This document shows positions 111-37,012 of a stretch of 38,664 nt of DNA, in pieces. The translations under genes and the position numbers were made by a program. The notes below the pieces were generated by a model. It ran no database searches. It saw nothing but the letters and a program-made list of their open reading frames with translations, and was not told where the DNA came from. Within the stretch, counting starts at the first letter, position 1; each line of letters opens with the position of its first letter. The DNA is from Candidatus Falkowbacteria bacterium (GTDB taxonomy: Bacteria > Patescibacteriota > Patescibacteriia > Patescibacteriales > Patescibacteriaceae), in the NCBI GenBank assembly GCA_037130845.1, contig JBAXSE010000013.1, positions 1 to 38,664 on the forward strand, given 5' to 3'.

Positions 111-164
111 AGCCATAATTATTTGAAAATTAATCAGTATTTATGCATATATGTGGAGGTTTTG

Positions 165-1553
165 ATGTTATTGCAACAGGAATATAAGCGTCTTTGCCAG
201 GTCATGACTATGACGGCGGAGCATTTTGGAGTGGACATCGTCCTACCGTCAGTCATCCCTGATGAGTGGCAGACGGAATTTGATAAGAAAAGCAAGGTGG
301 TGTTGAGCCTTGGTTCGCATCATCTGGTTATCATGAGATATCTCAATACCTTGAAGATTGAATTGGTCAGCAATGCTGCTCATAATCTTAAGGATGAATG
401 GGCGCTCAAGGTCCATGACATCGATTTTGTGACTTGGGTCTATGGCAGCTATTTTTCTGCCGATAAGGTGTTTGATTTGACCAAGACGATCGGGACGCAT
501 TATCACCCCGAGATATTTCCTGATAAACCTTGGGAATGGAAAGAGAAAGCACCAACAGAAACAAAGGCGGAAACGATCGGACAATTCCTGCATCTCGAGC
601 CGGAGGTCCCGGTGGTTCCGGATATGGTAGTTGAACCTAATTTCGGCCAGCAGCCGGTAGTTGTGGAGAAAAGGCGGAATTGTCCTCATTGCAATCATCG
701 CTTGACTGCCGAAGAAGTGGCGGATGAATGTTGCAGCAAATGCGAGGAGTATTTCTATGTTTGTCCGCGTTGTTCAGTTCTGCTAAAAGAAGACCCCGAC
801 GACCTGGAAGAGTGCCCCAAATGCCATAAGACCTATCTGCATATCGATTGCCCTAGCAATAATTGCCAAGCCGAAGTCTGGATAGATGCCAAGCACTGTC
901 CTGAGTGCAAGAAGACGTTTGAACGACAGCCTTGCCCGAGCTGTGAAAAGCCGATTATCTTTTCGGAATCACAGGAGGAGTGTCCGCATTGCGGAAATAC
1001 GCTCTATATCTGCCCGCGCTGCCATTGTTATATTGATGAAGATCCTGACGATGTTGAGGAGTGCCCCAAGTGCCATAAGACGCTAAGGATAACCGATTGT
1101 CCTGGTAATCATTGTCGTGCGGATGTTTATGCCGATGCCACGGAATGTCCGGAGTGCCATATGCCCTTTGACCTCAAGCCTTGTCCGAGCTGCGAAAAGC
1201 CGATTATCTTTTCGGAAAATCTGGATGAGTGCCCATATTGCGATACTACGCTCTATATCTGCCCATTCTGCCATGAGTATATAGATGAAGATCCTGACGA
1301 TGCCGATGAATGTCCTAAATGTAAGGCTAGTCTGCGGCAGATGGATTGTCCAAATTGCGGTGACACTATCTTTGCGGATTATAAGTCTTGCCCGGCCTGC
1401 CATACTGAATTCGATTTTATTAAGTGTCCTGTCCTGGGCTGTGAAGAGATGATTATCTTGCACCAAGATGTAGAATCTTGTCCGCATTGTGATTTTGATA
1501 TCACATATACCAAATGCCCGCATTGCGACAAAGCGTATTATGTCGTGGTTTAA
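165..1553 (+). CDS. Poly-zinc-ribbon protein: ~170-aa N-terminal domain of unknown function plus about ten CPxC...CPxC zinc-ribbon pairs
   Basis: ORF 123-1553. Preferred start is ATG165, 5 nt after GGAGG (155-159). The C-terminal ~290 aa hold at least 10 paired CxxC/CPxC knuckles spaced 10-14 aa apart. Confidence 0.75.
   Translation: MLLQQEYKRLCQVMTMTAEHFGVDIVLPSVIPDEWQTEFDKKSKVVLSLGSHHLVIMRYLNTLKIELVSNAAHNLKDEWALKVHDIDFVTWVYGSYFSADKVFDLTKTIGTHYHPEIFPDKPWEWKEKAPTETKAETIGQFLHLEPEVPVVPDMVVEPNFGQQPVVVEKRRNCPHCNHRLTAEEVADECCSKCEEYFYVCPRCSVLLKEDPDDLEECPKCHKTYLHIDCPSNNCQAEVWIDAKHCPECKKTFERQPCPSCEKPIIFSESQEECPHCGNTLYICPRCHCYIDEDPDDVEECPKCHKTLRITDCPGNHCRADVYADATECPECHMPFDLKPCPSCEKPIIFSENLDECPYCDTTLYICPFCHEYIDEDPDDADECPKCKASLRQMDCPNCGDTIFADYKSCPACHTEFDFIKCPVLGCEEMIILHQDVESCPHCDFDITYTKCPHCDKAYYVVV
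756..1502 (+). repeat. Three tandem 249-bp (83-aa) in-frame coding repeats, each encoding three zinc ribbons
   Basis: Units begin Y-[VI]-CP-[RF]-C at nt 756, 1005 and 1254. Long identical nt strings recur one period apart, e.g. gaaaagccgattatcttttcggaa and acgctctatatctgccc. Confidence 0.85.
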
Positions 1554-9301: not shown

Positions 9302-9432
9302 TTAAACTTAGGCTTTTTTAGCCAAGGTGGAACATTTGACAAAGCGCCGATATAATACTATTTTAAGCATGTTCTTTGAAAAATAAATATAATTAAGAAA
9401 ACATAAATTTAAGATAAATTTTGGAGGTAGTC

Positions 9433-9876
9433 ATGTATTACGTATTCGTCGGAGTGGTGGTTGTATCCGGTGTATTCTACCACATATCACAAAAAGAAGT
9501 GCCCAAGTCGGTTAACCCGATGGCGTCGTTGGCCTTTAGCTATATCATAGCTTTGATTGGTTCTATAATTCTTTTGCCGGTTGTCTCCAGATTATCAGAA
9601 GCAAGTAAGTCTTTGAATCTGGACAAATTGACGCAGGCGGTAAATTGGCCCAGTTTCTTTGTCGGGGTCACGATAATCGGTATAGAAATCGGCGTAATGA
9701 TGGCCTATCGTTATGGCGGTAAGATGAATAATACGTCGTTGATTATTTATTCGACGATTGCGGCTGTTTTGTTTTTGGTAGGAGTCTATCATTATAATGA
9801 AACAATCTCCTGGCAAAAATTATTTGGCGCAGTATTATGTTTTGTCGGCCTCGTAGTAATGGCGTTAAGTAAATAA
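9433..9876 (+). CDS. Small polytopic membrane protein, EamA/DMT-like half transporter (tentative)
   Basis: ATG9433 lies 5 nt after GGAGG (9423-9427). 147 aa with 4-5 hydrophobic helices. Family assignment is by general resemblance only. Confidence 0.5.
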   Translation: MYYVFVGVVVVSGVFYHISQKEVPKSVNPMASLAFSYIIALIGSIILLPVVSRLSEASKSLNLDKLTQAVNWPSFFVGVTIIGIEIGVMMAYRYGGKMNNTSLIIYSTIAAVLFLVGVYHYNETISWQKLFGAVLCFVGLVVMALSK

Positions 9877-9898: not shown

Positions 9899-9930
9899 AG
9901 CCCCTAGAAATAGGGGCTTTATTTTATTTT
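9899..9930 (+). terminator. Rho-independent terminator
   Basis: Stem agcccct (9899-9905) / aggggct (9912-9918), 6-nt loop, then tttatttta. Confidence 0.6.
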
Positions 9931-9968: not shown

Positions 9969-9997
9969 TTGACAAAAGGCCCGGAAAGTCCTAGATT
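9969..9997 (+). promoter_or_regulatory. Sigma70-type promoter upstream of hisS
   Basis: TTGACA (9969-9974), 17-nt spacer, TAGATT (9992-9997). Confidence 0.5.
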
Positions 9998-10083: not shown

Positions 10084-11499
10084 ATGGCAGAAGGCAACAA
10101 AGCCAAGGGCATAGTCAAACCTGAGCGTCCGGGAGGATTCCTGGATTTTTTACCGGCCGATTATCTGGCGCGGGAAAGAATCTTTGGCATCATAGCAAAA
10201 GTTTTCCGGTCTTATGGCTACGATCCGATCGAAACACCGATGGTGGAATTTGCAAAATCCCTTGTCGGCGAAGACGAAACATCGAAAAATATATTCTATA
10301 TTTCCAACAAGAATAAGAATATGACGCAAGAAGGGCAGTTGGGTTTGCGTTTTGACCACACTGTACCCTTTGCCAGATTGTTAGCGGCTAATCCATACAA
10401 CGCCGACACTAAAGAAGGCATTAAACTGCCTTGGCGCCGTATGGTGGTTGGTCCGGTGTTCAGGGGCGAAAGTCCGCAGAAAGGGCGTTACCGCCAGTTC
10501 TATCAATTCGATGTCGATATAGTCGGAGTTTCTTCCATGATGGCAGATGCTGAGATTGTGGCTATAATCTATGAAACTCTGACAGCTTTAGGGCTTGATG
10601 ATTTTGTAATCAAGATTAATAATCGCAAGTTATTAAATGGCTTGGCGGAATTATTGGATGTCCACGATAGGGCGGAAGTAAATCGAGATGATATTACCAA
10701 GGCTATTTTTAGAATCTTGGATAAATTGGATAAAATCGGCCTGGATCAGGTATTGTTTGAATTAACGCAAGAGCCTGACAGCATCTTCGATCCGGCGCCT
10801 AATTTATCGTCAGAGGCTGGAGAAAAGATCAAATCTTTTATTAATATCGATGGTGACAACTACGAGAAATTAATAAAAGCTAAAACAGTCTTTGCGGGTC
10901 TAAGTATCGCCGAAGACGGCATAAAGGAATTAGAGCAGATCTTAGGATTTACAGCTGATCTCGGCGTTCCGAGCGATAAGGTGTTAGTTGACTTTGGCGT
11001 TGCTCGCGGGCTGGATTATTATACCGGTCCGGTGATGGAGACAAGTTTGCTGACTGCGCCGGAATTCGGCAGTGTTTTCTCGGGAGGCCGTTACAACAAT
11101 CTGATGGAACGTTTTACAGGACAAGAATTGCCCGCGGTCGGCGCGTCTATCGGAGTCGATAGATTATTTGCCGCCTTAAGGCAGCTTGGTTTGTTGGACG
11201 TTAGTCGGGCTACCATTACCGATGTTTTGGTAATGCGCATTGCGGACAATCTTGATAGTGAATATCTGGAAATCGCCAAGATAATCAGGCGCTGTGGCCT
11301 GAATACGGAGGTTTCTATGCTTGAAGACAGGACTTTTAAGGCTCAATTCAATTTTGCGTTGGGTCGTGGCGTTAAATACGCCATTATTTACGGAGAAAAT
11401 GAATCAATCAAGCGCACAATCCAGATTAAGAATCTAAGCACTCGAAAACAGACAGAAATTAATTTTTCCGATTTGGAAATATATTTTAATAATATTTAA
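10084..11499 (+). CDS. hisS: Histidyl-tRNA synthetase (class II), of the LRFD.TVPFAR / FYQFDVD sequence type
   Basis: Motifs YDPIETPMVEF, LRFDHTVPFARLLA, GPVFRGESPQKGRYRQFYQFDVDIVG (motif 2), GLDYYTG, GGRYNNL, VGASIGVDRL (motif 3). C-terminal anticodon-binding-like domain (DVLVM...YAIIYGENE). SD GGAG lies 9 nt upstream. Confidence 0.9.
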   Translation: MAEGNKAKGIVKPERPGGFLDFLPADYLARERIFGIIAKVFRSYGYDPIETPMVEFAKSLVGEDETSKNIFYISNKNKNMTQEGQLGLRFDHTVPFARLLAANPYNADTKEGIKLPWRRMVVGPVFRGESPQKGRYRQFYQFDVDIVGVSSMMADAEIVAIIYETLTALGLDDFVIKINNRKLLNGLAELLDVHDRAEVNRDDITKAIFRILDKLDKIGLDQVLFELTQEPDSIFDPAPNLSSEAGEKIKSFINIDGDNYEKLIKAKTVFAGLSIAEDGIKELEQILGFTADLGVPSDKVLVDFGVARGLDYYTGPVMETSLLTAPEFGSVFSGGRYNNLMERFTGQELPAVGASIGVDRLFAALRQLGLLDVSRATITDVLVMRIADNLDSEYLEIAKIIRRCGLNTEVSMLEDRTFKAQFNFALGRGVKYAIIYGENESIKRTIQIKNLSTRKQTEINFSDLEIYFNNI

Positions 11500-11513: not shown

Positions 11514-13169
11514 ATGGAAAGGACTATTAGTCTAGATGGTCGCACTTTAACGCTGCAAGACGTTGTCTTGATAGCTCGCGGCTATCGCGGCCAAGACGGA
11601 CATCAACATTATCCATATGTTGAGTTATCCGAACAAGCACAAGCAGATATTGGCAGTTTTCGCCACGGCCTTGATCTTCGGATCGCGGCTGGCGATATTA
11701 TCTACGGTGTCAATACCGGTTGCGGTGTCAAGAAAGGCACTATCATTGATCAGAAAGAGATCGATGCCTATCAGGCTCATTATATTCCGGCGCATTGTGT
11801 CGGTTATGGCGAACCTTTTGATGAAGAAATTGTCAGAGCCGCTCTTGTTTTGCGGGTCAACTCTTTCGCCTTGGGAAATTCCGGAATCAGGCTGGAAACC
11901 TGCAATAAATTGTTGGAAATCTACAACAAGGGCGTGATTCCCTTTGTACCCGAACAGGGTTCGGTGGGCTCCAGCGGTGATTTGTGCCCGTTGGCTCATG
12001 TTGCGGCAGTCATTACTGGCGTCGAAGGACAACAAGCATTCTACCACGGCAAATTGATGCAAGCGGCAGAAGCTTTGTCGCTTGCCGGCATCGATCCGAT
12101 AGTATTAAAAGCCAAAGAAGCGATGGGCTTGACTAACGGCGCAACCTTAACTTTAGCCATGGGCTTGCTTGCTATTCATGATAGCAAAAAATTAATAGCG
12201 TATTCCCATATGGCGGCAGCATTGTCGCTTGAGGCGATCCGCGGTGAAAAAAACGCCTTTGACCCCAGAATCCACGAGGCCAGAAAGAACCAGCATAGCG
12301 CCAGAGTAGCGAAAATCATTCGTGACCTGACCAGCGGTTCAGACCGCATGACTACGTCAGCTAGAGATGTCTGTTTGACGGATGAGAAGAAATCGAAGAA
12401 ATATCAGGACGATGCTAAATCAAGGCCGACTCCTCGGGTCCAGGATGCCTATTCTTTCCGCGCCTATGCCCAGGTGGCAGGACCGGTGGTTAAAGCATTC
12501 GAGTATGCCGAAGAAGTCTTTTTGTCGGAAATGAATGCAGCTACAGATAATCCATTGATCTTTAAGAGCGGATTCGGGGAGAATGAAAGGTTTGAAGCGA
12601 TATCCGGTGGCAATTTTCATGGCGAACCGTTGGGTCAAGCAGCTGATTTTCTTAAGATTGCCATCCAGCAGTTGGCCAACATTTCCGATCGGCGTTTCTA
12701 TGCCTTGACGATGTCCACGACCAGCTATGGCTTGCCGGATGATTTGGCTGGAGCAATTAATCGCGATCTGAATACGGGATTAATGATCCTCCAATACACG
12801 ACAGCTGCTTTGGTATCAGAGAATAAAGCATTATGTTATCCTTCGGTTATCGATTCTATTCCGACTTCTGCAAACCAAGAAGATTATGTCAGTATGTCAA
12901 CTATCGGCGCGCGTAATCTGCGCAAGGTGATAAAAAATACTTATGGCGTTATCGGTGCCGAATTATTGGCTGCTGCCCAGGGCATATCACTGACCGAAGA
13001 CCAGCTAAGGCCGCTCGAGCTTGATGGCTTGGGAAGAGAAACTACCTTTGTTTATAAGAAGGTCCGCCAGGTAGTCGCCGCAATGTATGAAGATCGTTAT
13101 ATCCACAAAGATTTCAAGGCTTTGGTCGATTTCATGATAAAGTCTGATCCTCAGGATTTCTTACCATAG
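11514..13169 (+). CDS. hutH: Histidine ammonia-lyase-like MIO enzyme (aromatic amino acid lyase family)
   Basis: Collinear with HAL: YGVNTGCG, GSVGSSGDLCPLAH (MIO loop), LTNG, DPRIHEAR, QDAYSFR, TDNPL, SGGNFHGEP, TAALVSENK, PTSANQEDYVSM. AGGAG lies 6 nt before the ATG, which is only 14 nt after the hisS stop. Confidence 0.85.
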   Translation: MERTISLDGRTLTLQDVVLIARGYRGQDGHQHYPYVELSEQAQADIGSFRHGLDLRIAAGDIIYGVNTGCGVKKGTIIDQKEIDAYQAHYIPAHCVGYGEPFDEEIVRAALVLRVNSFALGNSGIRLETCNKLLEIYNKGVIPFVPEQGSVGSSGDLCPLAHVAAVITGVEGQQAFYHGKLMQAAEALSLAGIDPIVLKAKEAMGLTNGATLTLAMGLLAIHDSKKLIAYSHMAAALSLEAIRGEKNAFDPRIHEARKNQHSARVAKIIRDLTSGSDRMTTSARDVCLTDEKKSKKYQDDAKSRPTPRVQDAYSFRAYAQVAGPVVKAFEYAEEVFLSEMNAATDNPLIFKSGFGENERFEAISGGNFHGEPLGQAADFLKIAIQQLANISDRRFYALTMSTTSYGLPDDLAGAINRDLNTGLMILQYTTAALVSENKALCYPSVIDSIPTSANQEDYVSMSTIGARNLRKVIKNTYGVIGAELLAAAQGISLTEDQLRPLELDGLGRETTFVYKKVRQVVAAMYEDRYIHKDFKALVDFMIKSDPQDFLP

Positions 13170-13186: not shown

Positions 13187-13218
13187 GCCGACCTTCGGAC
13201 CTGGGTCGGCTTTTTTTT
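13187..13218 (+). terminator. Rho-independent terminator after the hisS/HAL-like operon
   Basis: Stem gccgacc (13187-13193) / ggtcggc (13204-13210), followed by tttttttt. Confidence 0.7.
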
Positions 13219-13251: not shown

Positions 13252-13279
13252 TTGACAAAACTAGGAATCATGCTAGAAT
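13252..13279 (+). promoter_or_regulatory. Sigma70-type promoter for the GNAT/tRNA-His unit
   Basis: TTGACA (13252-13257), 16-nt spacer, TAGAAT (13274-13279). Confidence 0.5.
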
Positions 13280-13326: not shown

Positions 13327-13995
13327 ATGCAAAAAAATACCTGCACTTATAGGAAAATAAATAACCTTGATAATGCCGCAGAAGCTGAAAAGTTAGCGCG
13401 TTGCTATCAGGAGGTTTTTGCCGGTTATCCTTGGAATGAATACAAGAAATGCCCTGATTGCGGGGTGAGGTGGGGCAAAGAAGATGCGCCGGAAGATGGA
13501 CGTTGTTCAAAATGTGATGCTACTCCCGTTCTTGTTGATTTCTGGGCGAAGGAGGATGTTATAAATGATTTCCAAAAACAATTACAAAGCTCCAGCGGCG
13601 TGTTGTGTGTTGCGGTTAATTCCAGAGACGAGATTACGGGTTTCTGTTCCGGTTACGAAACTACTCCCGAAGAATTGGAAAAGCATTTGCAGCTTCCTGA
13701 ATTGGCCAAATGGTTGCGTTGTTATTTTCCCAATGGTGTTAGATTCGGTTATCAAGATGAGATCGGCGTTCTCGATTCGTATCGAGGGCAGAAGATTGCT
13801 ACCGAACTTTTCAAGAAAAGAATGGAAGATTTTAAGGCAAGTGGTTTGGATATAGCTGTATTAAGAACCAAGACTATGCCTCCGACCATAACCTTTAAAT
13901 GGTACCCTCGATTGGGTTATAGTGTCATCCAATGTTATCATGATGATGATTGCCGTGTAATTATGGCGACAGAAATCAAGAGTATTCAGTTGTAG
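13327..13995 (+). CDS. GNAT-family N-acyltransferase with an inserted CxxC...CxxC zinc ribbon
   Basis: GNAT core YQDEIGVLDSYRGQKIATELFKKRMEDFKASGLDIAVLRT (acetyl-CoA motif-A-like R-G-Q-x-I-A) plus ...RLGYSVI. Zn ribbon CPDCG-x15-CSKC at aa 42-63. Confidence 0.7.
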   Translation: MQKNTCTYRKINNLDNAAEAEKLARCYQEVFAGYPWNEYKKCPDCGVRWGKEDAPEDGRCSKCDATPVLVDFWAKEDVINDFQKQLQSSSGVLCVAVNSRDEITGFCSGYETTPEELEKHLQLPELAKWLRCYFPNGVRFGYQDEIGVLDSYRGQKIATELFKKRMEDFKASGLDIAVLRTKTMPPTITFKWYPRLGYSVIQCYHDDDCRVIMATEIKSIQL

Positions 13996-14019
13996 AACAG
14001 TTGAGCTTTACATGCCGAT

Positions 14020-14094
14020 GGACGCGTAGCTCAGTTGGCCCAGAGCAATGGATTGTGGCTCCATTTGTCACGGGTTCGATTCCCGTCGCGTCCA
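14020..14094 (+). tRNA. tRNA-His (anticodon GUG), discriminator A73, no genomically encoded G-1, no encoded CCA
   Basis: Hand-folded cloverleaf. Acceptor GGACGCG (14020-26) pairs with CGCGTCC (14087-93). U8A9. D arm GCTC/AGTTGGCCCA/GAGC. Anticodon arm ATGGA / TT-GTG-GC / TCCAT with GTG at 14055-57. 5-nt variable loop. T arm ACGGG/TTCGATT/CCCGT. Position -1 is T14019 and position 73 is A14094. Confidence 0.9.
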
Positions 14095-14098
14095 CGAA

Positions 14099-14126
14099 CG
14101 GCAATTATAATGATTGCCGTTTTTTA
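14099..14126 (+). terminator. Rho-independent terminator directly after tRNA-His
   Basis: Stem cggcaat (14099-14105) / attgccg (14113-14119), followed by ttttttatt. Confidence 0.7.
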
Positions 14127-14162
14127 TTTACAAAAATGTCAGTTTGAGTCAGAATAGGATAT

Positions 14163-14975
14163 ATGAAATATGATGAGACGATAATTAAGATATCGGGCGC
14201 TAAGCCGGGCAAGACGCTGGCTGTTTTTGCCGGTGTCCATGGCAATGAAACCACGGGCATCAAGGCTCTTAAGCAAGTCGTAAAAAACATTAAAATAGAC
14301 GCTGGTACAGTATATTTTGTTTTGGCTAATCCGGAGGCGATTGGAAAGAATGTCAGGCAAGTTGATAAGAATTTAAATCGATGCTTTTTTCTCGGCAATA
14401 AAGGCAGGACGGCAGAGGATAAGCGCGCTAGAGAGCTGATGAAGCTGTTGGATAAATGCGAAGCGTTGTTAGATTTGCATGCCAGTAACAACCCCAATTC
14501 AATACCGTTCATCATCTGTGAAAAACACGCATTTCAAGCTGCCAGCATCTTTGATTTCAAAATTGTATCACATGGCTGGGATGCTTTTGAGCCCGGCGCG
14601 ACTGATGGCTACATGAATACTCAGCGCAAAATAGCCTTGTGTCTGGAGTGCGGTTCTGTACACGATAATAACGAACCATTAGCCGTTAAATCAATTATGC
14701 AGTTTCTTAAATTTTTTGGCGCAATTAAAGATGCAACTGTTAAGTATAATCATAAGAAACAAAAAATGATTAAGATTGTCAAAGCCGGTTATAAGAAATC
14801 GGAGCAGCTTGCCTTTGCCAAAAATTATAATGATTTTGCCAAGTTAAAACCCGGAGAAATATACGCCACGGATGGACCGAATAAATATAAAGCGGGGACG
14901 AACCAATGCATTATCTTTCCAAATATAAATAAAAAAATTGGCGAAGAAATATTCTTGATTGGCAGAACGATGTAA
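14163..14975 (+). CDS. Succinylglutamate desuccinylase/aspartoacylase (AstE/AspA) family zinc deacylase
   Basis: Family signature LAVFAGVHGNETTG (H-x-x-E zinc ligands) and LLDLHAS (third His ligand). Size is typical at 270 aa. Confidence 0.75.
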   Translation: MKYDETIIKISGAKPGKTLAVFAGVHGNETTGIKALKQVVKNIKIDAGTVYFVLANPEAIGKNVRQVDKNLNRCFFLGNKGRTAEDKRARELMKLLDKCEALLDLHASNNPNSIPFIICEKHAFQAASIFDFKIVSHGWDAFEPGATDGYMNTQRKIALCLECGSVHDNNEPLAVKSIMQFLKFFGAIKDATVKYNHKKQKMIKIVKAGYKKSEQLAFAKNYNDFAKLKPGEIYATDGPNKYKAGTNQCIIFPNINKKIGEEIFLIGRTM

Positions 14976-24069: not shown

Positions 24070-26706
24070 ATGAATGTTGCACAATTAAACACAGAAAAGC
24101 GTCTTGCTACGGCTATTATGCCTTGGAAAGACATCAGCATCGGTTCGGCCGCTATTGTTTCTAGCACTATCGCTAATAGCGGTATTTTTACTTCTACCCA
24201 AACCTTTAAGATTCAAGTTCCGCTTAGTGTTAACGAAAGCGTAACCAGGGATTATGACGGTTATCGCTTGCCAATGGACAAGCTGGACGAAGACGGAGTA
24301 ATCCGAGTCGGCGAGAGCGTCGCCTTGGGTGATGTGCTGGTTGCCATGATTGAATATGATCCACGAGAGTATCAGCCGGAAGAAAAATTGCTCAAAGCAA
24401 TTTTTGGCGACGGTGCTACTAACGTGACCGATCGTTCGGTTACCATGTCTTTCCCTGATCCTGCTATAGTCTATAGCGTCGAAAAAAAACTCGAAGGCAA
24501 AAAAAAGCTGGTGACTGTTTATCTGGCCTTTAAACGTAAACTACGTTTGGGTGATATTCTGGTCGATAGCAAAGGTAACCAAGCAGTTGTCTCGGCTGTT
24601 GTTGCTGATAATGAAATGCCTTATCTGAAAAGCTCGCAAACCAGAGCTCAAATAGTGGTTACGCCGCTCACTGATTGCGGCGAAACGATGGTAGATCATT
24701 TGGATAAACAAAGGCTGGTTGTGGTATATGATACCGAAGATCCCAAGTTTATCCTGATAGCGCCGCCGCTTGATAGGCCAAGCAAAAATAAGAAGTGGTT
24801 ATGCAAAGATGAAGAAGCGCGTTTTGGGGCTATCGCTTGGAAAAAATTAGAACTATTGTCCGGTCAAAAGAATATCGGTTATGGCGTTCAAAGTAGATTG
24901 CGCAACGATGCCCAATTGGTGGATGGCATCAAGATCCGCCAAGAATTTATCACAAGCCTGTTGCATTACAATCTGCCGGCTGTAGCCAGAGAATTTTTGA
25001 CCGTCAAGTCTGACGATGCCAAAGGCTACGGCGATACTGTACAAGCTATTATTAATGGATGGTCTTTGCCCGCAGCGGCTGCTCCGGCTTCGCTAAAGCG
25101 CTATGAAGCGACGATCAAGGCAATGGCCTTGACTATCGGAGTCGATAACGGCAGTAGGCAAGTCGGCTTACTTGATGGCTATAATTATCCCAACCAGGAT
25201 TTGCCAGGTATTGGCGTTTCTTTGTGGGTAACTCCGCAATCAGAGATTTTGGCTCAGTCCCACGGTGAATTGACCGGTGTTGATTATATGGATGATGCTA
25301 TCAAGCAGGCTCAAGGGAAAAAGAAAACAGACAAGATAGAAGTCGGTTTGTTCAGCCAACGCATTTTCGGCCCTCTACGGGATTATGAATGCGCTTGCGG
25401 TAAATACAAGCGAGTCCGCTATAGCGGCATCGTCTGCGATCGTTGCGGTGTCTTGGTAGCGCAAAGCTCTGTGCGCAAAGAACGTTTCGGCCATATCAAC
25501 CTGGCTTTGCCTTGCGTGCATCCTTTGTTCGAAAAAGCAGTTGCCGAGTTATATAAGTCGATCGATTACACGAACACTCCGCAATATTTTGAAGAGCTGA
25601 TCGAAAAAAACTTTGATCTAGAAAAAGCCGATTATCTTTTTGAATGTTCCGAGATAATGAAAAAGTTATCGTTGCCCGAACAGCAGATTCTTAATGTCAT
25701 CCCGGTCATGCCGGCCGGTTGGCGTTCCGATTGGATGTCTTATACTAGCAGTTGGACAATGGATTTAAATTATCTATATAGCAGATTAATGACTCGTAAC
25801 AATCGATTGACTCGATTAATCGACATCAAAGCTCCTTGGATGATTATCTCCAATGAATATCGAATGCTACAAGAGGCTTTGTCTGAATTATTTAATTGCA
25901 CTCATTTGGGGAGTGAGACTCCGCCTGTCGGATTGATCCATAGCCTGCAAGCAGCCGGTCGCAATCTTTATGACAAAAAGGTTAGTTATTCCGGACGTGC
26001 GCTGGTTATCCCAGATGACCGCCTGGCAATCGACGAATGCGTTTTGCCTAGAACTCTGGCAGTCAGATTGTTTGAGCCTTTTGTGCTTCAGCGCTTGATG
26101 GCATCGCCGCCGGAAACTCCTTGCGACCCGATTTGGGACGATTCTTATCCGGATCTGCCTCCTATCTTGGCAGATGTAGTAGTAGATATTGCCGCTGGCA
26201 ATAAGACTACAGTCGATCTAAAGAAGATTGATGAAGATGAAGCTAGAGCTTATCCGGGCTATACCTACAAGACGGCTAGTGGAATGGTTAAAAATAACCA
26301 CCCCGAAGCATTGGAAAAGCTGGAAGCGATTGTTGGCGATAGGGTTGTCCTATTGAGCTCTGTCAGTCAGATAGAATTTGCCGGTTTTTGTCCACGTTTA
26401 AGTAACGAAGAAGTCATCAGACTTCATCCGCAGGCTATTAAGCTTCTTGGTATTTCTCTGGGTAAGGCTGGCAAGGCGTTAGTCTATCTACCCTTGTCTG
26501 ATGATGCTCAAGCGGAAGTCAAAGGTGTTATGTGCGGCCAAGAATGGTCGTATGTTCCTCAGACTCCGAGCGTTGGATATAGCTCTGTTCTTAATAGTAA
26601 TCTCAAGCATCTTGTTTCTAATCCTTGGTTGGATCAACCGGAGCCGGAAACCTGCAAATGGTTGCTATCCTTAAATGATCGATTTTTGCTCAATTATAGC
26701 AAATAG
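24070..26706 (+). CDS. RNA polymerase beta (C-terminal third) / beta-prime (N-terminal third) fusion-like protein lacking catalytic motifs (pseudo-RNAP)
   Basis: 878-aa ORF, AAGGAA SD. Beta-like blocks: PEEKLLKAIFGDGATNVTDRSV, VYLAFKRKLRLGDILVDSKGNQAVVS..EMPY, FLTVKSDD. Beta-prime-like blocks: GLFSQRIFGPLRDYECACGKYKRVRYSGIVCDRCGV, VIPVMPAGWR, LYSRLMTRNNRLTRLIDIKAP..ISNEYRMLQEAL, VSYSGRALVI, LPRTLAVRLFEPF. There is no NADFDGD; the aligned segment is LGISLGKAGKALVYLPL. Confidence 0.85.
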   Translation: MNVAQLNTEKRLATAIMPWKDISIGSAAIVSSTIANSGIFTSTQTFKIQVPLSVNESVTRDYDGYRLPMDKLDEDGVIRVGESVALGDVLVAMIEYDPREYQPEEKLLKAIFGDGATNVTDRSVTMSFPDPAIVYSVEKKLEGKKKLVTVYLAFKRKLRLGDILVDSKGNQAVVSAVVADNEMPYLKSSQTRAQIVVTPLTDCGETMVDHLDKQRLVVVYDTEDPKFILIAPPLDRPSKNKKWLCKDEEARFGAIAWKKLELLSGQKNIGYGVQSRLRNDAQLVDGIKIRQEFITSLLHYNLPAVAREFLTVKSDDAKGYGDTVQAIINGWSLPAAAAPASLKRYEATIKAMALTIGVDNGSRQVGLLDGYNYPNQDLPGIGVSLWVTPQSEILAQSHGELTGVDYMDDAIKQAQGKKKTDKIEVGLFSQRIFGPLRDYECACGKYKRVRYSGIVCDRCGVLVAQSSVRKERFGHINLALPCVHPLFEKAVAELYKSIDYTNTPQYFEELIEKNFDLEKADYLFECSEIMKKLSLPEQQILNVIPVMPAGWRSDWMSYTSSWTMDLNYLYSRLMTRNNRLTRLIDIKAPWMIISNEYRMLQEALSELFNCTHLGSETPPVGLIHSLQAAGRNLYDKKVSYSGRALVIPDDRLAIDECVLPRTLAVRLFEPFVLQRLMASPPETPCDPIWDDSYPDLPPILADVVVDIAAGNKTTVDLKKIDEDEARAYPGYTYKTASGMVKNNHPEALEKLEAIVGDRVVLLSSVSQIEFAGFCPRLSNEEVIRLHPQAIKLLGISLGKAGKALVYLPLSDDAQAEVKGVMCGQEWSYVPQTPSVGYSSVLNSNLKHLVSNPWLDQPEPETCKWLLSLNDRFLLNYSK

Positions 26707-33014: not shown

Positions 33015-33129
33015 AGTAAAAATGCTATTGACATCGCTTAGGTAAAGTGTTTAGATAGGCTCATTATTACGATAATAAAAAGCTAATAATAGCATAAAAT
33101 TGTTCATTAATATATTTGCGGAGGATAAA

Positions 33130-33807
33130 ATGGAAAGGTCTAATAGAGTAATTATCCCGGGTTTAGGGACTATTCTCAGGCTTAAGATCGCTAGCATGCA
33201 TGTCGATGCGGAAAACGGCTTTGCGCCCCTGTGTCCGTTGGAACTGCCGGTACCGGACGGCCAGAATATTGTACACGAGCTGATAGCTCAAAATAACTTC
33301 GCCCGCTATCTGGTAGGCAGCAAAGAAGGACACTCGGACCATCCCCAATGGGCGGCCACCGAGAGCGAGCCGGCCTTTACGCCGATGACGGGCTATCCCA
33401 ATATGAATCGGCGTTGGAATGTGCATTGCGCTATCGGTACCTATGGCGGACAATTGCTGGACGGACTGCCGCCGATTAGCGGCTATGATTTTATGGTCTG
33501 GAAGGGCATTGAAGATGATATGCATCCCTATGGGGCTTGCTATCACGACCTGGCCAAGAAGCTGTCTACCGGGCTGATAGAATGGCTGACCTGCCAGAGA
33601 ATCTCGACAGTGATAGTGGGTGGTCTGGCGACTGATTACTGCGTGCTGGAAACAGTCTTGGAATTATTAGAGGCTGGTTTTGAAGTAGTAGTCAATCTGG
33701 GAGCTTGCCGCGGTGTCGCAACAGACACGACAGACACAGCTATCAAAAAGATGATTAAGCACGGCGCGATTATTATCCAGTCCAGCCAAGAACTAACGCT
33801 TGTCTAA
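33130..33807 (+). CDS. pncA: Nicotinamidase (isochorismatase-fold, PncA)
   Basis: ATG33130 lies 4 nt after GGAGGA. Catalytic Asp region VDAENGF, Lys in MVWKG, Cys in VGGLATDYCV. His-rich metal-site segment EGHSDHPQW. Confidence 0.8.
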   Translation: MERSNRVIIPGLGTILRLKIASMHVDAENGFAPLCPLELPVPDGQNIVHELIAQNNFARYLVGSKEGHSDHPQWAATESEPAFTPMTGYPNMNRRWNVHCAIGTYGGQLLDGLPPISGYDFMVWKGIEDDMHPYGACYHDLAKKLSTGLIEWLTCQRISTVIVGGLATDYCVLETVLELLEAGFEVVVNLGACRGVATDTTDTAIKKMIKHGAIIIQSSQELTLV

Positions 33808-33947
33808 GGGCACGATCCATCGCAAAGTCAAACAGGGGAAAGCCAGCCTTTCCCCCTACTCAAGTGGCGCTGAAAGTTTCGGCGCCAGCTGTCTAGGCAG
33901 TTCTTTAAAATTGAATAATCAAATTGTTATATTTATCAGGAGTAGAC

Positions 33948-35222
33948 ATGTATTTACCATCAAGTTTGTTCAGCTACAAGCAGGACAAAGGCATCATCCA
34001 AACGCTCATGGATGTGGACTTCTATAAGTTCACTATGGGGCAATTGGCCTTTAAGTATTATCGCAATGTGCAAGTGACCTTCAAGTTCACCAATCGCAAT
34101 AAGAATGTTAAGCTGGCCAAGATTATCGATATCGCCCGTTTGCGTGAAGAGCTGGACCATTGCCGTACCCTAAGCTTCAAGAATTCGGAGATCCATTATT
34201 TGCGCGGTACTAATGAGTATCAGCATAGGATGTTCGAGGAAGATTACTTGCAGTTCTTGGCGACCTTGCGTTTGCCAGATTATGAGCTGGAATTTGTGGG
34301 AGATGAAATTTGGCTGACCTTTACGGGCTTTTGGCCGGAAGTGACATTGTGGGAAACCCTCGCCTTGTCGATTATCAACGAGCTCTATGTTCGTGCCATG
34401 TTAGGCAAGGATACTAGCGCTTGGGAACGCAACTACGCTGTCGGAGTCACCAGGTTGTATGAGAAGATTGAAAGCTTGCGCGAATATCCGGAATTAGTCT
34501 TCACTGATTTCTGTACCCGTCGCCGTTTTAACGGCCCGTGGCAGGGATACTGCATCGAGACGACCGTGCGAGAATTACCCGGGCAGTTCCTGGGCACTTC
34601 CAACGTGATGTTCTCTCAGCAATTGGCAGACCACAATTTCGTCCCTATGGGCACATCCGCTCATGAACGTGATATGGTGTTGGCTGCTTTGCAGTTCAAT
34701 AGCGATGTGGGCATCCTTAATAGCCTCTGGCAGAGCGCGGATGAATGGTACAATCAATATGGCGAAGGCCTGTCTATCTTTTTGCCCGATACCTTCGGCA
34801 CCGATGCCTTTTTCGCCCAATTCGGGTCGGCTCGAGCCAAAAAATGGAAGGGCTCGCGGCAAGATTCCGCTGATCCATATGCCTACGGCAGAAAGTTGAT
34901 CAAGTATTATGAAGGCTATGAGATTGATCCACGAAATAAAATGTGCATCTTTAGCGATGGCTTGACGCACGAATTGATGATTTGTTTGCATATATATTTC
35001 CATCGGCAGCTCAAAGATGGTTATGGCTACGGCACGCATTTCGGCAACGACTTGCTGGTTCCGCCTTTGCCCATTGTGGTCAAAGTCGACAGCGTCAACG
35101 GCAATCCGGCTGTCAAGCTTTCTGACAATCTGGCCAAAGGCATGGGATTGCAGACTGAACAAGAGCGTTACAAAAGGATATTTGGCTACACGCGTGATTT
35201 CAGACAAGAATGTGTTGTATAA
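33948..35222 (+). CDS. pncB: Nicotinate phosphoribosyltransferase
   Basis: ATG33948 lies 5 nt after CAGGAG. N-terminal DVDFYKFTMGQ, FTDFCTRRR, MGTSAHERDM (phospho-His loop), SDGL. Length 424 aa. Confidence 0.85.
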   Translation: MYLPSSLFSYKQDKGIIQTLMDVDFYKFTMGQLAFKYYRNVQVTFKFTNRNKNVKLAKIIDIARLREELDHCRTLSFKNSEIHYLRGTNEYQHRMFEEDYLQFLATLRLPDYELEFVGDEIWLTFTGFWPEVTLWETLALSIINELYVRAMLGKDTSAWERNYAVGVTRLYEKIESLREYPELVFTDFCTRRRFNGPWQGYCIETTVRELPGQFLGTSNVMFSQQLADHNFVPMGTSAHERDMVLAALQFNSDVGILNSLWQSADEWYNQYGEGLSIFLPDTFGTDAFFAQFGSARAKKWKGSRQDSADPYAYGRKLIKYYEGYEIDPRNKMCIFSDGLTHELMICLHIYFHRQLKDGYGYGTHFGNDLLVPPLPIVVKVDSVNGNPAVKLSDNLAKGMGLQTEQERYKRIFGYTRDFRQECVV

Positions 35223-35240
35223 TTTAACTCGGAGTTTAGA

Positions 35241-36149
35241 ATGATAGTAGAAAGAAGGAAGTTCTATGGTCTGAACGGAGTGATCCAGGAAGACCGTGAG
35301 CGGTTTAAGCATATTCCTTTGTTGGAATTCTCTAAGGAAGTTATGAATAGTTTTTCTCTTGCCAGTACAAAGATACGCGACAAGGATGATCTAGAGAAAG
35401 CGGTAGCTGATATTTATTGCAAATGGACGGCAGGCTATGGTTATTATGGCGATGTCATCAATGTTAGCTGTTTTATTGCTGACGACCATTGTTATCTGCA
35501 AGTAAATTATATCGCTCGTTTGGCTTTTCCCAAGCCGAATATGGCCTCCGACCTGGTGCCTATCGTGATTGATAATCGCGGCTATGCCTTTCTGATTGCC
35601 ATTACCCGCAAATACAATCCCGGTAAAGGCGGACTTGCCTTGATAGGCGGCTTCCGAAGCGTGATCAAGAATCGCATGGAAACGTCAGTTGAAGCAGCAA
35701 TGCGAGAGGCTAGTGAAGAAGCAGTCGGTCTTGATCTAGAGTATATAGTTAATTGTCACGATGGGATATATTCTAATATAACTCCCCAAAACAGTCAGGC
35801 GATACTAGTGCTGGGCCTGCGTCATGAGATTGTCGGCGGCATCTGGCAGCAGGTGGTGAATCTGGAGTGGTTGGGTACTTATCGTACTGCTCCGGATCGA
35901 GATGAATCATACATCACTCGGCAACGAGTCGATATAACTGATGCTTATGTCCTGCCGATTCGAGTTGATCGGCTGTTGACCAAAGCAGAAATCGCCACTT
36001 GGTTTAGACCGGGCGATGATGCTGAAACGGTCGAAATTATCCGGATTGACGATGGCTACGAGCCTGCTTTTGTCTTTAACCATCATAGTGTCATCTTCAA
36101 GGAAGCTTGGAAAAAGATCGCGAATGAAGTGGCCGTTCTCTATATGTAA
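35241..36149 (+). CDS. Nudix-fold protein with a ~100-aa N-terminal extension and a near-canonical Nudix box; function unclear
   Basis: GGAG SD. LALIGGFRSVIKNRMETSVEAAMREASEEAVGL has E-x7-REASEE intact but the G-to-E spacing is lengthened. C-terminal AFVFNHHSVIFKEAW resembles the LAFDH..I motif of ADP-ribose-type Nudix/NrtR proteins. Confidence 0.6.
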   Translation: MIVERRKFYGLNGVIQEDRERFKHIPLLEFSKEVMNSFSLASTKIRDKDDLEKAVADIYCKWTAGYGYYGDVINVSCFIADDHCYLQVNYIARLAFPKPNMASDLVPIVIDNRGYAFLIAITRKYNPGKGGLALIGGFRSVIKNRMETSVEAAMREASEEAVGLDLEYIVNCHDGIYSNITPQNSQAILVLGLRHEIVGGIWQQVVNLEWLGTYRTAPDRDESYITRQRVDITDAYVLPIRVDRLLTKAEIATWFRPGDDAETVEIIRIDDGYEPAFVFNHHSVIFKEAWKKIANEVAVLYM

Positions 36150-36264
36150 GCAAATTGATTATTCACAGTCGACGGCTAACACGACCGTCGACTATTTATC
36201 TAAGCGATCAAACTCTTGATCCTTTGGATAAGTAAAGTACTTTGAAAATTTATAAGGAACAATC

Positions 36265-37002: not shown

Positions 37003-37012
37003 GAGTGCAGTA

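What the first reader, a model, noticed from the sequence alone, without database searches (positions are those of the whole stretch)
14019..14094. tRNA-His(GUG) with A73 and no genomically encoded G-1
The hand-folded cloverleaf is unambiguous: 7-bp acceptor G14020-C14093 ... G14026-C14087, U8, D, anticodon and T arms all canonical, anticodon GTG at 14055-57. Only seven nucleotides precede U8A9. The base at -1 is T14019 and the discriminator is A14094.

Typical bacterial tRNA-His genes encode an extra G-1 that pairs with C73 and is retained by RNase P. G-1/C73 is the major HisRS identity element. Known exceptions are eukaryotes (A73, with G-1 added by Thg1) and a clade of Alphaproteobacteria that lost G-1 and has A73 together with a co-evolved, atypical HisRS.

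Here the HisRS encoded 2.5 kb upstream has the LRFDHTVPFAR / RYRQFYQFDVDIVG motif type. I associate that type with eukaryote/archaeal-like HisRS rather than the E. coli-type LRPEGT / QLGCEVFG form. The tRNA and synthetase therefore look jointly non-canonical for a bacterium.
Basis: partly seen in the sequence, partly recalled or inferred. Interest (0 to 1): 0.62.

Follow-up and report, generated by a model that had tools for sequence, protein, structure and literature searches.

The report
Extra HisRS–tRNA-His module lacking G-1
The histidine tRNA gene really does lack the usual extra 5' G and has A73, but it appears to belong to an add-on gene module (second histidyl-tRNA synthetase, histidine ammonia-lyase and its own tRNA) found in some candidate-phyla-radiation bacteria, rather than to a Caulobacter-style co-evolved replacement of the housekeeping pair.

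Summary
Observation confirmed. ARAGORN and Rfam (69 bits) call tRNA-His(GUG) at 14020-14094 with a 7-bp acceptor stem, T at -1, A73 and no encoded CCA.

Interpretation only partly supported. The HisRS at 10084-11499 is of the eukaryote/archaeal-like type. However, it keeps the standard motif-2 loop (PQKGRYRQF), and the tRNA lacks the Caulobacter signature (U72, C3-G70).

Eight independent lineages carry this "A-type" hisS fused into an operon with a histidine ammonia-lyase homolog, plus a linked tRNA-His. Their -1/73 states are U/A, G/U, A/A, U/A, C/U, A/U, G/C and G/U, while the cloverleaf is kept by compensatory changes. In 119 comparator tRNA-His genes, 117 are G-1/C73 (Fisher p = 3e-9).

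In two related contigs (L215, L218) the A-type hisS lies on the same contig as the 429-aa HisRS that is the standard enzyme of Falkowbacteria/Patescibacteria. A named Falkowbacteria lineage lacks the module at the syntenic site.

Best reading: an accessory HisRS/HAL/tRNA-His module whose synthetase does not depend on G-1:C73.

Whether this MAG also has a canonical tRNA-His and the 429-aa HisRS could not be tested. New variant of a known kind. Interest is moderate to high.

The parts
14020..14094 (+). tRNA-His(GUG). It has a 7-bp acceptor stem GGACGCG/CGCGTCC, G1-C72, A73 (A14094), G37 and a 10-nt D-loop. The base at -1 is T14019. No CCA is encoded (74-75 = CG).
   Evidence: ARAGORN; Rfam 69.1 bits; sequence. 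Ortholog in L006 with the same stem. Cloverleaf covariation across 7 linked orthologs: 97% paired, 10/21 pairs with double changes.
14096..14128 (+). Intrinsic-terminator-like hairpin and T-run starting 2 nt after position 73.
   Evidence: Terminator scan; stable hairpin in the MFE fold. An equivalent hairpin follows the linked tRNA-His in L006, L210, L213, L215, L216, L217 and L218.
13327..13995 (+). GNAT-fold acetyltransferase-like protein (222 aa) with a Cys-rich insert. It ends 24 nt before the tRNA, so it is probably co-transcribed with it.
   Evidence: Pfam Acetyltransf_1, E 1.9e-5. Only one homolog among 5.8 billion clusters, P0122 in L006. Weak similarity (E 1e-5 to 1e-7) to the GNATs just upstream of the tRNA-His in L215 and L217, plus a shared N-terminal motif.
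13252..13279 (+). Best sigma-70-like promoter match in the region (TTGACA-16-TAGAAT with TG), upstream of GNAT-tRNA.
   Evidence: Consensus scan, 11/12. This is a prediction only.
13187..13210 (+). Terminator-like hairpin directly after the lyase gene.
   Evidence: 8 pairs, 6 GC, T8 tail. This is a prediction only.
11514..13169 (+). Histidine ammonia-lyase-like MIO enzyme (551 aa). It starts 15 nt after hisS.
   Evidence: Pfam Lyase_aromatic 505 bits. NCBIfam hutH 474.7 bits, below the 539 cut-off. Best PDB matches are P. putida HAL, 1e-85, with GSVGSSGDL in place of GSVGASGDL and the His83 and Glu414 equivalents kept. hisS-lyase adjacency is conserved in all A-type loci.
10084..11499 (+). 'A-type' histidyl-tRNA synthetase (471 aa), of the eukaryote/archaeal-like sequence type. 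All class II and HisA/HisB motifs are present. Motif-2 loop is FRGES-PQKGRYRQF.
   Evidence: TIGR00442 345 bits against a cut-off of 286.75; PDB matches; alignment; NJ tree places window with L006 at 100% within the A/B clade.
9969..9997 (+). Promoter-like site upstream of hisS. It is preceded by a terminator-like hairpin at 9899-9918 after the EamA gene.
   Evidence: This is a prediction only.
14163..14975 (+). AstE/AspA-family (succinylglutamate desuccinylase/aspartoacylase-like) protein, a conserved downstream neighbour.
   Evidence: Pfam AstE_AspA_cat. Ortholog at the same place in L006, 71% identical.
9421..9876 (+). EamA-family membrane transporter, a conserved upstream neighbour.
   Evidence: Pfam EamA. 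Ortholog upstream of hisS in L006, 57% identical.

Best explanation
The window comes from a Falkowbacteria-like candidate-phyla-radiation bacterium (the label NCBI gives the MAG).

Positions 9.9-14.1 kb hold an accessory histidine module with these parts:
- a second, 'A-type' HisRS gene
- a histidine ammonia-lyase homolog immediately after it
- a GNAT gene
- a dedicated tRNA-His gene, closed by a terminator

How it most likely works (inferred):
1. The tRNA is transcribed with the GNAT mRNA.
2. RNase P cuts it at +1.
3. Its 3' trailer is removed and CCA is added.
4. The A-type HisRS charges it without needing G-1 or C73.

In this module family the synthetase apparently reads other features: the GUG anticodon, G37, G1-C72 and G2. 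Positions -1 and 73 have therefore drifted freely between lineages.

The housekeeping HisRS of such organisms is a different, 429-aa enzyme encoded elsewhere. My model predicts, but I could not test, that it serves a separate canonical tRNA-His.

Shown here: the tRNA anatomy, the conserved module, the drift at -1/73 under a conserved cloverleaf, and the coexistence of two HisRS types in related genomes.

Inferred: G-1-independent charging, the processing steps, and that this particular MAG also has the housekeeping pair.
For: 1. The tRNA is real and non-canonical.

2. The module is conserved. hisS is followed directly by the HAL-like lyase, with overlap in L213 and L216, in every A-type locus examined: window, L006, L210, L212, L213, L215, L216, L217 and L218. 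A tRNA-His lies on the same strand within 1-7 kb in eight lineages. In an unselected set of 80 HisRS loci only 2 had any tRNA-His nearby.

3. The -1/73 states in those eight lineages are U/A, G/U, A/A, U/A, C/U, A/U, G/C and G/U. In comparators the count is 117/119 G/C (Fisher p = 3e-9).

4. The same tRNAs keep a perfect cloverleaf. 97.3% of cells are paired, and 10/21 pairs have changes on both sides (0/500 shuffles reach this). Rfam scores are 64-70 bits. They are therefore functional tRNAs, not decaying copies.

5. The motif-2 loop is unchanged relative to relatives that have canonical tRNA-His.

6. L215 and L218 each carry the A-type hisS and a 429-aa HisRS on one contig. P0083 and P0166 both list a longest contig of exactly 400,209 bp.

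7. The 429-aa type has more than 7,900 homologs. The top 120 are 69-81% identical, and the named ones are Patescibacteria or 'Candidatus Falkowbacteria'.

8. In a named Falkowbacteria lineage the syntenic site next to the 429-aa HisRS lacks the module.

9. The window's HisRS carries the NCBI label 'Candidatus Falkowbacteria'.
Against: - No direct evidence that this MAG has the 429-aa HisRS or a second tRNA-His. Only this 38.7-kb contig could be read.
- The window/L006 sub-branch is separate from the L215/L218 sub-branch in which coexistence was shown. It also lacks the urocanase and CntK-like genes of those loci.
- The MAG's taxonomic label is the submitter's.
- No residue-level signature of G-1 independence could be identified. 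The Gly-Gly pocket dipeptide is absent from the A-type, but also from B-type enzymes of Desulfobacterales, which have canonical tRNA-His. It is present in the G-1-independent T. brucei enzyme.
- Three of the eight linked tRNAs still have G at -1. Six of the eight -1/73 combinations could pair, so retention of N-1 is not excluded.
- No function is established for having a second pair that reads the same codons.
Confidence: 0.55

Rival explanations
1. Sole-pair replacement. This organism has only this tRNA-His and only this HisRS, and the synthetase has become G-1-independent. This would be an independent repeat of what happened in the Caulobacter/Rhizobiales clade.
For: - The tRNA is intact and under structural constraint.
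- CPR genomes are small and usually single-copy for tRNAs (general knowledge).
- No second HisRS or tRNA-His lies within the 38.7-kb window.
- The window sub-branch was never directly seen together with the 429-aa HisRS.
Against: - Related CPR genomes carry the A-type as an extra copy beside the ubiquitous 429-aa HisRS.
- The A-type is rare among Falkowbacteria-labelled proteins, whereas the 429-aa type is universal.
- There is no co-evolutionary change in the motif-2 loop.
- The discriminator varies among A, U and C across close relatives. That is unusual for an identity element of a sole housekeeping pair.
Confidence: 0.25
2. N-1 is retained. T-1 pairs with A73 (G-1 with U73 in L006), giving an 8-bp acceptor helix. 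Bacterial RNase P then cuts one position upstream, and the mature tRNA carries U-1 with its 5' phosphate, which HisRS mainly senses.
For: - U-1:A73 pairs in the precursor MFE fold.
- Six of eight lineages have pairable -1/73 combinations, against 6/16 expected by chance.
- HisRS contacts with position -1 are mostly with the phosphate and backbone (Tian 2015).
Against: - L210 (A/A) and L216 (C/U) cannot pair.
- Six of eight against an expectation of 3 of 8 is not significant.
- A weak terminal U:A or G.U pair is a poor substitute for G:C in directing the shifted cleavage (literature summarised).
- The A-type lacks the Gly-Gly pocket that accommodates N-1.
Confidence: 0.07
3. G-1 is added after transcription by a Thg1-like protein encoded elsewhere, as in eukaryotes, where A73 and G1-C72 are the norm.
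For: - A73 with G1-C72 is the eukaryotic pre-Thg1 configuration.
- The HisRS is of the type closest to eukaryotic cytoplasmic enzymes.
- Thg1-like proteins exist in some bacteria.
Against: - No Thg1 domain is found in any window ORF or in the related loci, by precomputed and run Pfam searches.
- Bacterial and archaeal-type Thg1-like enzymes act in a templated way and prefer C73. Opposite A73 the archaeal type adds U, and G only inefficiently.
- Position 73 varies among A, U and C between relatives, which does not fit one addition rule.
Confidence: 0.05
4. The gene is a redundant, functionally decaying tRNA-His copy whose acceptor end is drifting because nothing uses it.
For: - Positions -1 and 73 are free to vary.
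- L213 and L216 carry two U.U mismatches in the acceptor stem.
Against: - Compensatory changes maintain all four helices across eight lineages whose HisRSs are only 59-74% identical.
- Rfam scores are as high as for canonical tRNAs.
- The anticodon loop, G37 and the T-loop are invariant.
- The gene has stayed linked to hisS and has kept its own terminator.
Confidence: 0.03

Closest known systems
Caulobacter crescentus-type (alpha-proteobacterial RCS clade) delta-G-1 tRNA-His / divergent HisRS pair (Wang 2007; Yuan 2011, PMC3064791)
   Same: It is a bacterial tRNA-His gene without G-1 and with A73. Charging is presumably independent of G-1. The HisRS is of the longer, non-E. coli type.
   Different: - The window tRNA has C72 and A3-U70, not U72 and C3-G70. 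In Caulobacter, U72C costs about 90-fold in charging efficiency.
- The window HisRS keeps Gln at the motif-2 position where Caulobacter has Gly118.
- The discriminator is not fixed among relatives (A, U or C).
- The pair is physically linked and sits in a HAL operon.
- It probably coexists with a second, standard HisRS instead of replacing it.
G-1-independent HisRS/tRNA-His of Trypanosoma brucei and Acanthamoeba castellanii (Rao & Jackman 2015, PMC4338351)
   Same: - The tRNA has A73 and a Watson-Crick G1-C72 pair, with no G-1.
- The synthetase shows no obvious motif-2 signature.
- A. castellanii has two HisRS enzymes with different G-1 dependence in one organism.
   Different: - Those are eukaryotes, and the two Acanthamoeba enzymes work in different compartments. 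Here both would share one bacterial cytoplasm.
- It is the CPR housekeeping 429-aa HisRS, not the A-type, that resembles the trypanosomatid enzyme in sequence.
Canonical bacterial tRNA-His (encoded G-1:C73 kept by RNase P)
   Same: Same anticodon arm, D arm and T arm. The L217 member of the same module family still has G-1:C73.
   Different: The window gene has T at -1 and A at 73. 117 of 119 comparator genes are G/C.
Auxiliary aaRS copies and dedicated tRNAs, for example the non-proteinogenic tRNA-Gly species used with Fem transferases in Staphylococcus (general knowledge, not tested here)
   Same: This is the idea of an extra synthetase or tRNA serving a specialised or conditional role beside the housekeeping set. 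A GNAT-fold gene lies next to the tRNA.
   Different: There is no evidence here that the GNAT uses aminoacyl-tRNA. The structure model was too poor to compare. This is a lead, not a classification.

Membership tests
tRNA (Rfam RF00005), histidine isoacceptor | Cloverleaf matching the covariance model, with a GUG anticodon | tested here: met
   69.1 bits against a gathering score of 29, model positions 1-71. ARAGORN calls tRNA-His gtg.
Canonical bacterial tRNA-His | G encoded at -1 | tested here: not met
   T14019.
Canonical bacterial tRNA-His | C73 discriminator pairing with G-1 | tested here: not met
   A14094.
Caulobacter-type delta-G-1 pair | No encoded G-1, and A73 | tested here: met
Caulobacter-type delta-G-1 pair | G1-U72 wobble pair (a major identity element) and C3-G70 | tested here: not met
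   The window has G1-C72 and A3-U70. The features are defined in Yuan 2011. By contrast, L030, L092, L132 and L156 do have them.
Caulobacter-type delta-G-1 pair | 9-nt D-loop with U20a | tested here: inconclusive
   The window D-loop is AGUUGGCCCA, 10 nt. It is enlarged, but not the described form.
Caulobacter-type delta-G-1 pair | HisRS motif-2 loop changed at position 118 (Gly instead of Gln) | tested here: not met
   The window has PQKGRYRQF. G118 in CcrHisRS is taken from Rao & Jackman 2015.
Caulobacter-type delta-G-1 pair | Acidic residues replacing the Gly-Gly G-1 pocket of HisRS | tested here: inconclusive
   The window loop NKNKNMTQEG has no Gly-Gly. Neither do B-type relatives that go with canonical tRNA, and the loop alignment is ambiguous.
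Caulobacter-type delta-G-1 pair | It is the only tRNA-His and the only HisRS of the genome | not testable with these tools
   Only this contig is available. Related genomes have two HisRS types.
Eukaryote-type tRNA-His (G-1 added by Thg1) | A73 and G1-C72, with no encoded G-1 | tested here: met
Eukaryote-type tRNA-His (G-1 added by Thg1) | A Thg1 or Thg1-like protein in the genome | not testable with these tools
   None in the window or in related loci. The rest of the genome was not seen.
Histidyl-tRNA synthetase (TIGR00442, class IIa) | Score above the curated cut-off; catalytic, HisA/HisB and anticodon-binding regions present | tested here: met
   345 bits against 286.75. Pfam tRNA-synt_His and HGTP_anticodon. 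RGLDYYTG and GGRY are conserved.
Histidine ammonia-lyase (HutH, TIGR01225) | Score above the equivalog cut-off; MIO tripeptide; His-binding residues | tested here: inconclusive
   474.7 bits, below the 539.15 cut-off. The best PDB hits are HALs. The tripeptide is S-S-G instead of A-S-G. The H83 and E414 equivalents are present. There is a ~25-residue insertion.
A-type hisS-HAL-tRNA-His module (defined in this work) | hisS of the A/B clade directly followed by the lyase; a tRNA-His on the same strand nearby, ending in a terminator; G1-C72/G2 (G1.U72 in L218), G37, no CCA | tested here: met
   Window coordinates as listed under parts. Relatives are L006, L210, L213, L215, L216, L217 and L218. 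Tree.

The most novel reading that the evidence does not exclude
Some CPR bacteria maintain a naturally insulated second HisRS/tRNA-His pair in the same cytoplasm. The A-type enzyme would charge a G-1-less tRNA that the housekeeping HisRS ignores. The pair is co-expressed with histidine-catabolic genes (HAL, and urocanase in relatives) and with a GNAT.

Its purpose would be one of two things:
- to keep His-tRNA charged while histidine is being degraded
- to feed His-tRNA to a non-ribosomal acceptor, for example a GNAT-type transferase acting on the cell wall or on a metabolite

This would be a natural example of the 'two orthogonal HisRS/tRNA-His pairs in one cell' that Yuan et al. (2011) proposed as an engineering goal.
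Probability: 0.2. Interest if true: 0.85.

Novelty: new variant of a known kind. Interest (0 to 1): 0.62.

Why it matters
G-1 on tRNA-His is among the most conserved tRNA identity marks. In Bacteria the only accepted exception is one alpha-proteobacterial clade (stated). My literature searches found no other report.

This finding, with the relatives uncovered here, adds three things:
1. G-1-less tRNA-His genes occur in CPR bacteria, and Caulobacter-type ones occur in contigs assigned to Acidobacteriota.
2. In the CPR case the tRNA is physically tied to a specific HisRS and to histidine ammonia-lyase.
3. In that lineage -1 and 73 are evolutionarily unconstrained, with no visible change in the motif-2 loop. 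That points to a mode of tRNA-His recognition different from both the canonical and the Caulobacter modes.

If the pair really is insulated from the housekeeping pair, it is a ready-made orthogonal HisRS/tRNA pair for genetic-code engineering. It would also be a test case for how tRNA identity rules diverge after duplication.

The claim is directly testable with two recombinant enzymes and a few transcripts.

Tried and rejected
1. **Alternative register** with G14020 as G-1 and C14093 as C73. Rejected because it breaks 7:66 and displaces U8.

2. **Phage origin of the contig.** This was suggested by a fused RpoB/RpoC-like ORF, NAD-salvage genes and one-strand gene order.
   - No HisRS relative in IMG/VR.
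   - PHROG hits only to families of unknown function.
   - tblastn hits in 'phage' records are mostly bacterial rpoB-rpoC junctions at about 29% identity.
   - Not supported.

3. **Metagenome scan for G1G2-type tRNA-His** with the window's D and anticodon arms. It gave 0 hits, not even the window's own contig, so that collection does not hold this lineage.

4. **Covariation of -1 with 73 as an eighth pair.** Six of eight combinations are pairable, L210 (A/A) and L216 (C/U) are not, and this is not significant. It is kept only as a low-probability rival.

5. **Gly-Gly pocket as a predictor of G-1 dependence.** It is not diagnostic. It is absent in B-type enzymes that go with canonical tRNA, and present in the G-1-independent T. 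brucei HisRS.

6. **R116-equivalent in motif 2.** It varies (S, N, T, K) in both A and B types, so it is uninformative.

7. **GNAT as an aminoacyl-tRNA-dependent transferase.** The AlphaFold model from a 2-sequence alignment had mean pLDDT 61 with the C-terminal half below 50, so no fold search was run.

8. **Organism names for A-type relatives** from cluster look-up. None were returned.

Full report
**1. The observation**

ARAGORN finds one tRNA in the 38.7-kb window, tRNA-His(gtg) at 14020-14095. Rfam's tRNA model matches 14020-14094 end to end at 69.1 bits.

Read directly, the gene has:
- seven Watson-Crick acceptor pairs, G14020-C14093 to G14026-C14087
- U8 and A9 at 14027-14028
- anticodon GTG at 14055-14057
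- T at -1 (14019)
- A at 73 (14094)
- a CGAACGG trailer that runs straight into a terminator hairpin, so no CCA is encoded

Making G14020 the G-1 breaks pair 7:66 and displaces U8, so that register is rejected.

One qualification is that T-1 is complementary to A73, and an MFE fold of the precursor pairs them.

**2. How unusual it is**

I anchored positions 66-73 on the T-loop.
- 117 of 119 genes have G-1 and C73.
- The two exceptions, L030 and L092, are discussed in section 7.

**3. The synthetase**

ORF 10084-11499 is a bona fide HisRS: TIGR00442 at 345 bits against a cut-off of 286.75.
- Its best solved relatives are Nostoc 3net, Elizabethkingia 6nhi and human cytoplasmic HisRS. E. coli, S. 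aureus and T. thermophilus enzymes score far lower.
- It is 100% identical to a protein that NCBI labels 'MAG: Candidatus Falkowbacteria bacterium'.
- It is 74% identical to one metagenomic protein (P0002) and 56-63% identical to many others, including Desulfobacterales enzymes.

**4. A conserved module**

The contig of P0002 (L006) has the same gene order as the window: EamA, hisS, aromatic-lyase homolog, GNAT, tRNA-His, AstE/AspA-like.

I looked up eight further close HisRS relatives. They fall into two groups.

*Six 'A-type' relatives.* In all six, hisS is followed at once by the lyase, and the two genes overlap in L213 and L216. These are P0003/L210, P0011/L212, P0029/L213, P0103/L216, P0008/L215 and P0083/L217. 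P0023/L218 is a further case. Wherever the contig extends far enough, a tRNA-His lies on the same strand within 1-7 kb and is followed by a terminator hairpin.

*Two 'B-type' relatives.* These are Desulfobacterales P0005/L008 and Patescibacteria MAG057 P0061/L007. They have neither lyase nor tRNA nearby. MAG057's tRNA-His, on another contig (L049), is canonical.

Among 80 HisRS loci of the wider family fetched from metagenomes, only two had a tRNA-His within 10 kb.

The lyase is closest to histidine ammonia-lyase. P. putida HAL matches at 1e-85, the His83 and Glu414 equivalents are kept, and the MIO tripeptide is S-S-G. It scores below the HutH equivalog cut-off. Urocanase lies nearby in L215, L216 and L217.

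**5. The key comparative result**

| Lineage | -1 | 73 |
|---|---|---|
| window | U | A |
| L006 | G | U |
| L210 | A | A |
| L213 | U | A |
| L216 | C | U |
| L215 | A | U |
| L217 | G | C |
| L218 | G | U |

- Only L217 is canonical. Against 117/119 in the comparators, Fisher p = 3e-9.
- All eight have G1 and G2, the GUG anticodon, G37 and no CCA. Position 72 is C in seven and U in L218.
- Seven of them were aligned. They fit the cloverleaf with 97.3% of cells paired, and 10 of 21 pairs show changes on both sides. No shuffle out of 500 reaches this, and slid controls collapse to 31-49% paired.
- Rfam scores are 64-70 bits, the same range as canonical controls.

These are working tRNAs in which only -1 and 73 are free to vary. 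The simplest inference is that the partner synthetase does not read G-1:C73.

**6. No Caulobacter-style co-evolution**

The alpha-proteobacterial type is defined as follows.
- *tRNA:* no G-1, A73, G1-U72, C3-G70 and a 9-nt D-loop (Yuan 2011).
- *HisRS:* divergent, with Gly at motif-2 position 118 (Rao & Jackman 2015) and acidic residues in place of the Gly-Gly G-1 pocket (Tian 2015).

The window does not fit this.
- Its tRNA has C72, A3-U70 and a 10-nt D-loop.
- Its HisRS keeps PQKGRYRQF, as do all A-type relatives, including the one linked to a canonical tRNA.
- The Gly-Gly dipeptide is absent, but it is also absent from B-type enzymes. It is present in the G-1-independent T. brucei HisRS. 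It therefore cannot be used as a predictor.

**7. A separate group does fit the Caulobacter signature**

L030 and L092 (MAGs labelled Thermoanaerobaculia and Acidobacteriota) and the metagenome contigs L132 and L156 share these features:
- the tRNA-His lies directly upstream of hisS
- the base at -1 is not G
- G1.U72, C3-G70 (A3-U70 in L132) and A73
- their HisRS proteins have P-(G/D)-(P/K)-G-R-(F/Y)-R-E-F in motif 2 and an acidic 'PE.E' pocket loop

These proteins are about 38% identical to the window's and form their own clade. Three of the four loci also have the HAL-like lyase after hisS.

I found no report of this outside Alphaproteobacteria.

**8. The A-type HisRS is an additional enzyme**

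- In L215 (NCBI GCA_900089805.1, an 831-kb contig) a second HisRS of 429 aa lies 9 kb downstream of the A-type gene. L218 shows the same on a 25.9-kb contig.
- P0083 (A-type) and P0166 (429-aa type) both list a longest contig of exactly 400,209 bp.
- The 429-aa type has more than 7,900 homologs. The best 120 are 69-81% identical, and all named ones are Patescibacteria or 'Candidatus Falkowbacteria'. It is the housekeeping HisRS of these organisms, and it is very distant from the A/B clade.
- In a named Falkowbacteria lineage the 429-aa gene has the same local synteny (MgsA, response regulator, HisRS; RNase HII within 2 kb downstream), but no A-type module within 10 kb.

The module is therefore accessory and variably present.

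**9. Transcription signals in the window (consensus predictions only)**

- Terminator-like hairpin after EamA (9899-9918).
- Promoter-like site at 9969-9997, before hisS.
- Strong terminator-like hairpin after the lyase (13187-13210).
- The best promoter-like site at 13252-13279, before the GNAT.
- The GNAT ends 24 nt before the tRNA.
- Terminator-like hairpin at 14096-14122.

So the tRNA is probably made from a GNAT-tRNA transcript.

GNATs related to each other (46% identical) also sit just upstream of the tRNA-His in L215 and L217. They match the window's GNAT weakly and share an N-terminal motif with it. Otherwise the window's GNAT has a single homolog among 5.8 billion clusters.

No Thg1 domain is present in any ORF of the window or of the related loci.

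**10. Verdict**

The best-supported explanation is an accessory A-type hisS / HAL / (GNAT) / tRNA-His module in a Falkowbacteria-like CPR bacterium, whose synthetase charges its linked tRNA irrespective of -1 and 73 (confidence 0.55).

The main rival is that in this particular organism the module is the only histidine pair (0.25). Retention of U-1, addition of G-1 by a Thg1-like enzyme, and gene decay are minor rivals.

The decisive missing datum is the rest of the MAG: whether it holds a second tRNA-His, the 429-aa HisRS, or a Thg1-like protein.

Noticed in passing
window 24070-26706 (+): An 878-aa ORF joins an RpoB C-terminal region (Rpb2 domain 6) to an RpoC N-terminal region (Rpb1 domains 1-2). 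It belongs to a recurring family of ~790-870-aa proteins (P0243 68% identical; P0244-P0251 at 34-38%). All of them lack the catalytic NADFDGD motif that genuine beta' hits keep. This looks like a conserved, catalytically dead fused beta/beta' derivative.
   Followed up: partly
L030 1643-4886; L092 5839-7401; L132 5840-9366; L156 688-2722: In two MAGs labelled Acidobacteriota/Thermoanaerobaculia and in two metagenome contigs, the tRNA-His has no G-1 and has G1.U72 and A73 (C3-G70 in three of the four). It lies directly upstream of a hisS whose motif-2 loop has G or D instead of Gln118. In three of the four, a HAL-like lyase follows. This is the Caulobacter-type signature outside Alphaproteobacteria, with the tRNA and synthetase genes adjacent.
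   Followed up: partly
L132, L133, L149, L156, L182, L187, L195, L201, L204, L209 (metagenome loci): A HAL-like lyase lies downstream of hisS in 10 of 80 unselected loci of this broad HisRS family, immediately adjacent in most of them. The hisS-hutH-like gene pair therefore recurs well beyond the window's lineage. I found no description of it in the searchable literature.
   Followed up: partly
L213 10787-10860; L216 18544-18617: The linked tRNA-His of two related lineages shares tandem U4.U69 and U5.U68 mismatches in the acceptor stem (GGGTTCG/CGTTCCC). Both still score 66-69 bits as tRNA. Mismatches conserved in this way may be a recognition feature.
   Followed up: no
L215 20200-21404 (P0123); L218 12497-13786: The standard 429-aa HisRS of Patescibacteria/Falkowbacteria is most similar to Thermoplasma HisRS (1wu7) and to trypanosomatid HisRS (3hri, 3hrk). 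The T. brucei enzyme is reported to be G-1-independent. What CPR housekeeping tRNA-His genes look like in general was not surveyed. Only L049 was seen, and it is canonical.
   Followed up: no
window 33100-38579 (+): A run of NAD-related genes: isochorismatase/nicotinamidase-like, nicotinate phosphoribosyltransferase, a 302-aa unknown, NAD kinase-like, NAD synthase (NadE) and a PRK/uridine-kinase-family protein.
   Followed up: no
window 13327-13995 (+): The GNAT next to the tRNA carries a Cys-rich insert (CPDCG...CSKCD, zinc-ribbon-like) that is absent from the related GNATs of L215 and L217. In those loci the GNAT sits between a CntK_N (histidine-racemase-like) gene and an M15 (VanY-like) peptidase gene, hinting at histidine or cell-wall chemistry.
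   Followed up: partly
window 123-1553 (+): A 476-aa protein is built from many repeats of CPxC...CPxC double-zinc-ribbon (DZR) units.
   Followed up: no
L132 11717-11789: Rfam reports a second tRNA (61.7 bits) about 2.3 kb downstream of the lyase in L132. ARAGORN did not call it tRNA-His, and its identity was not examined.
   Followed up: no
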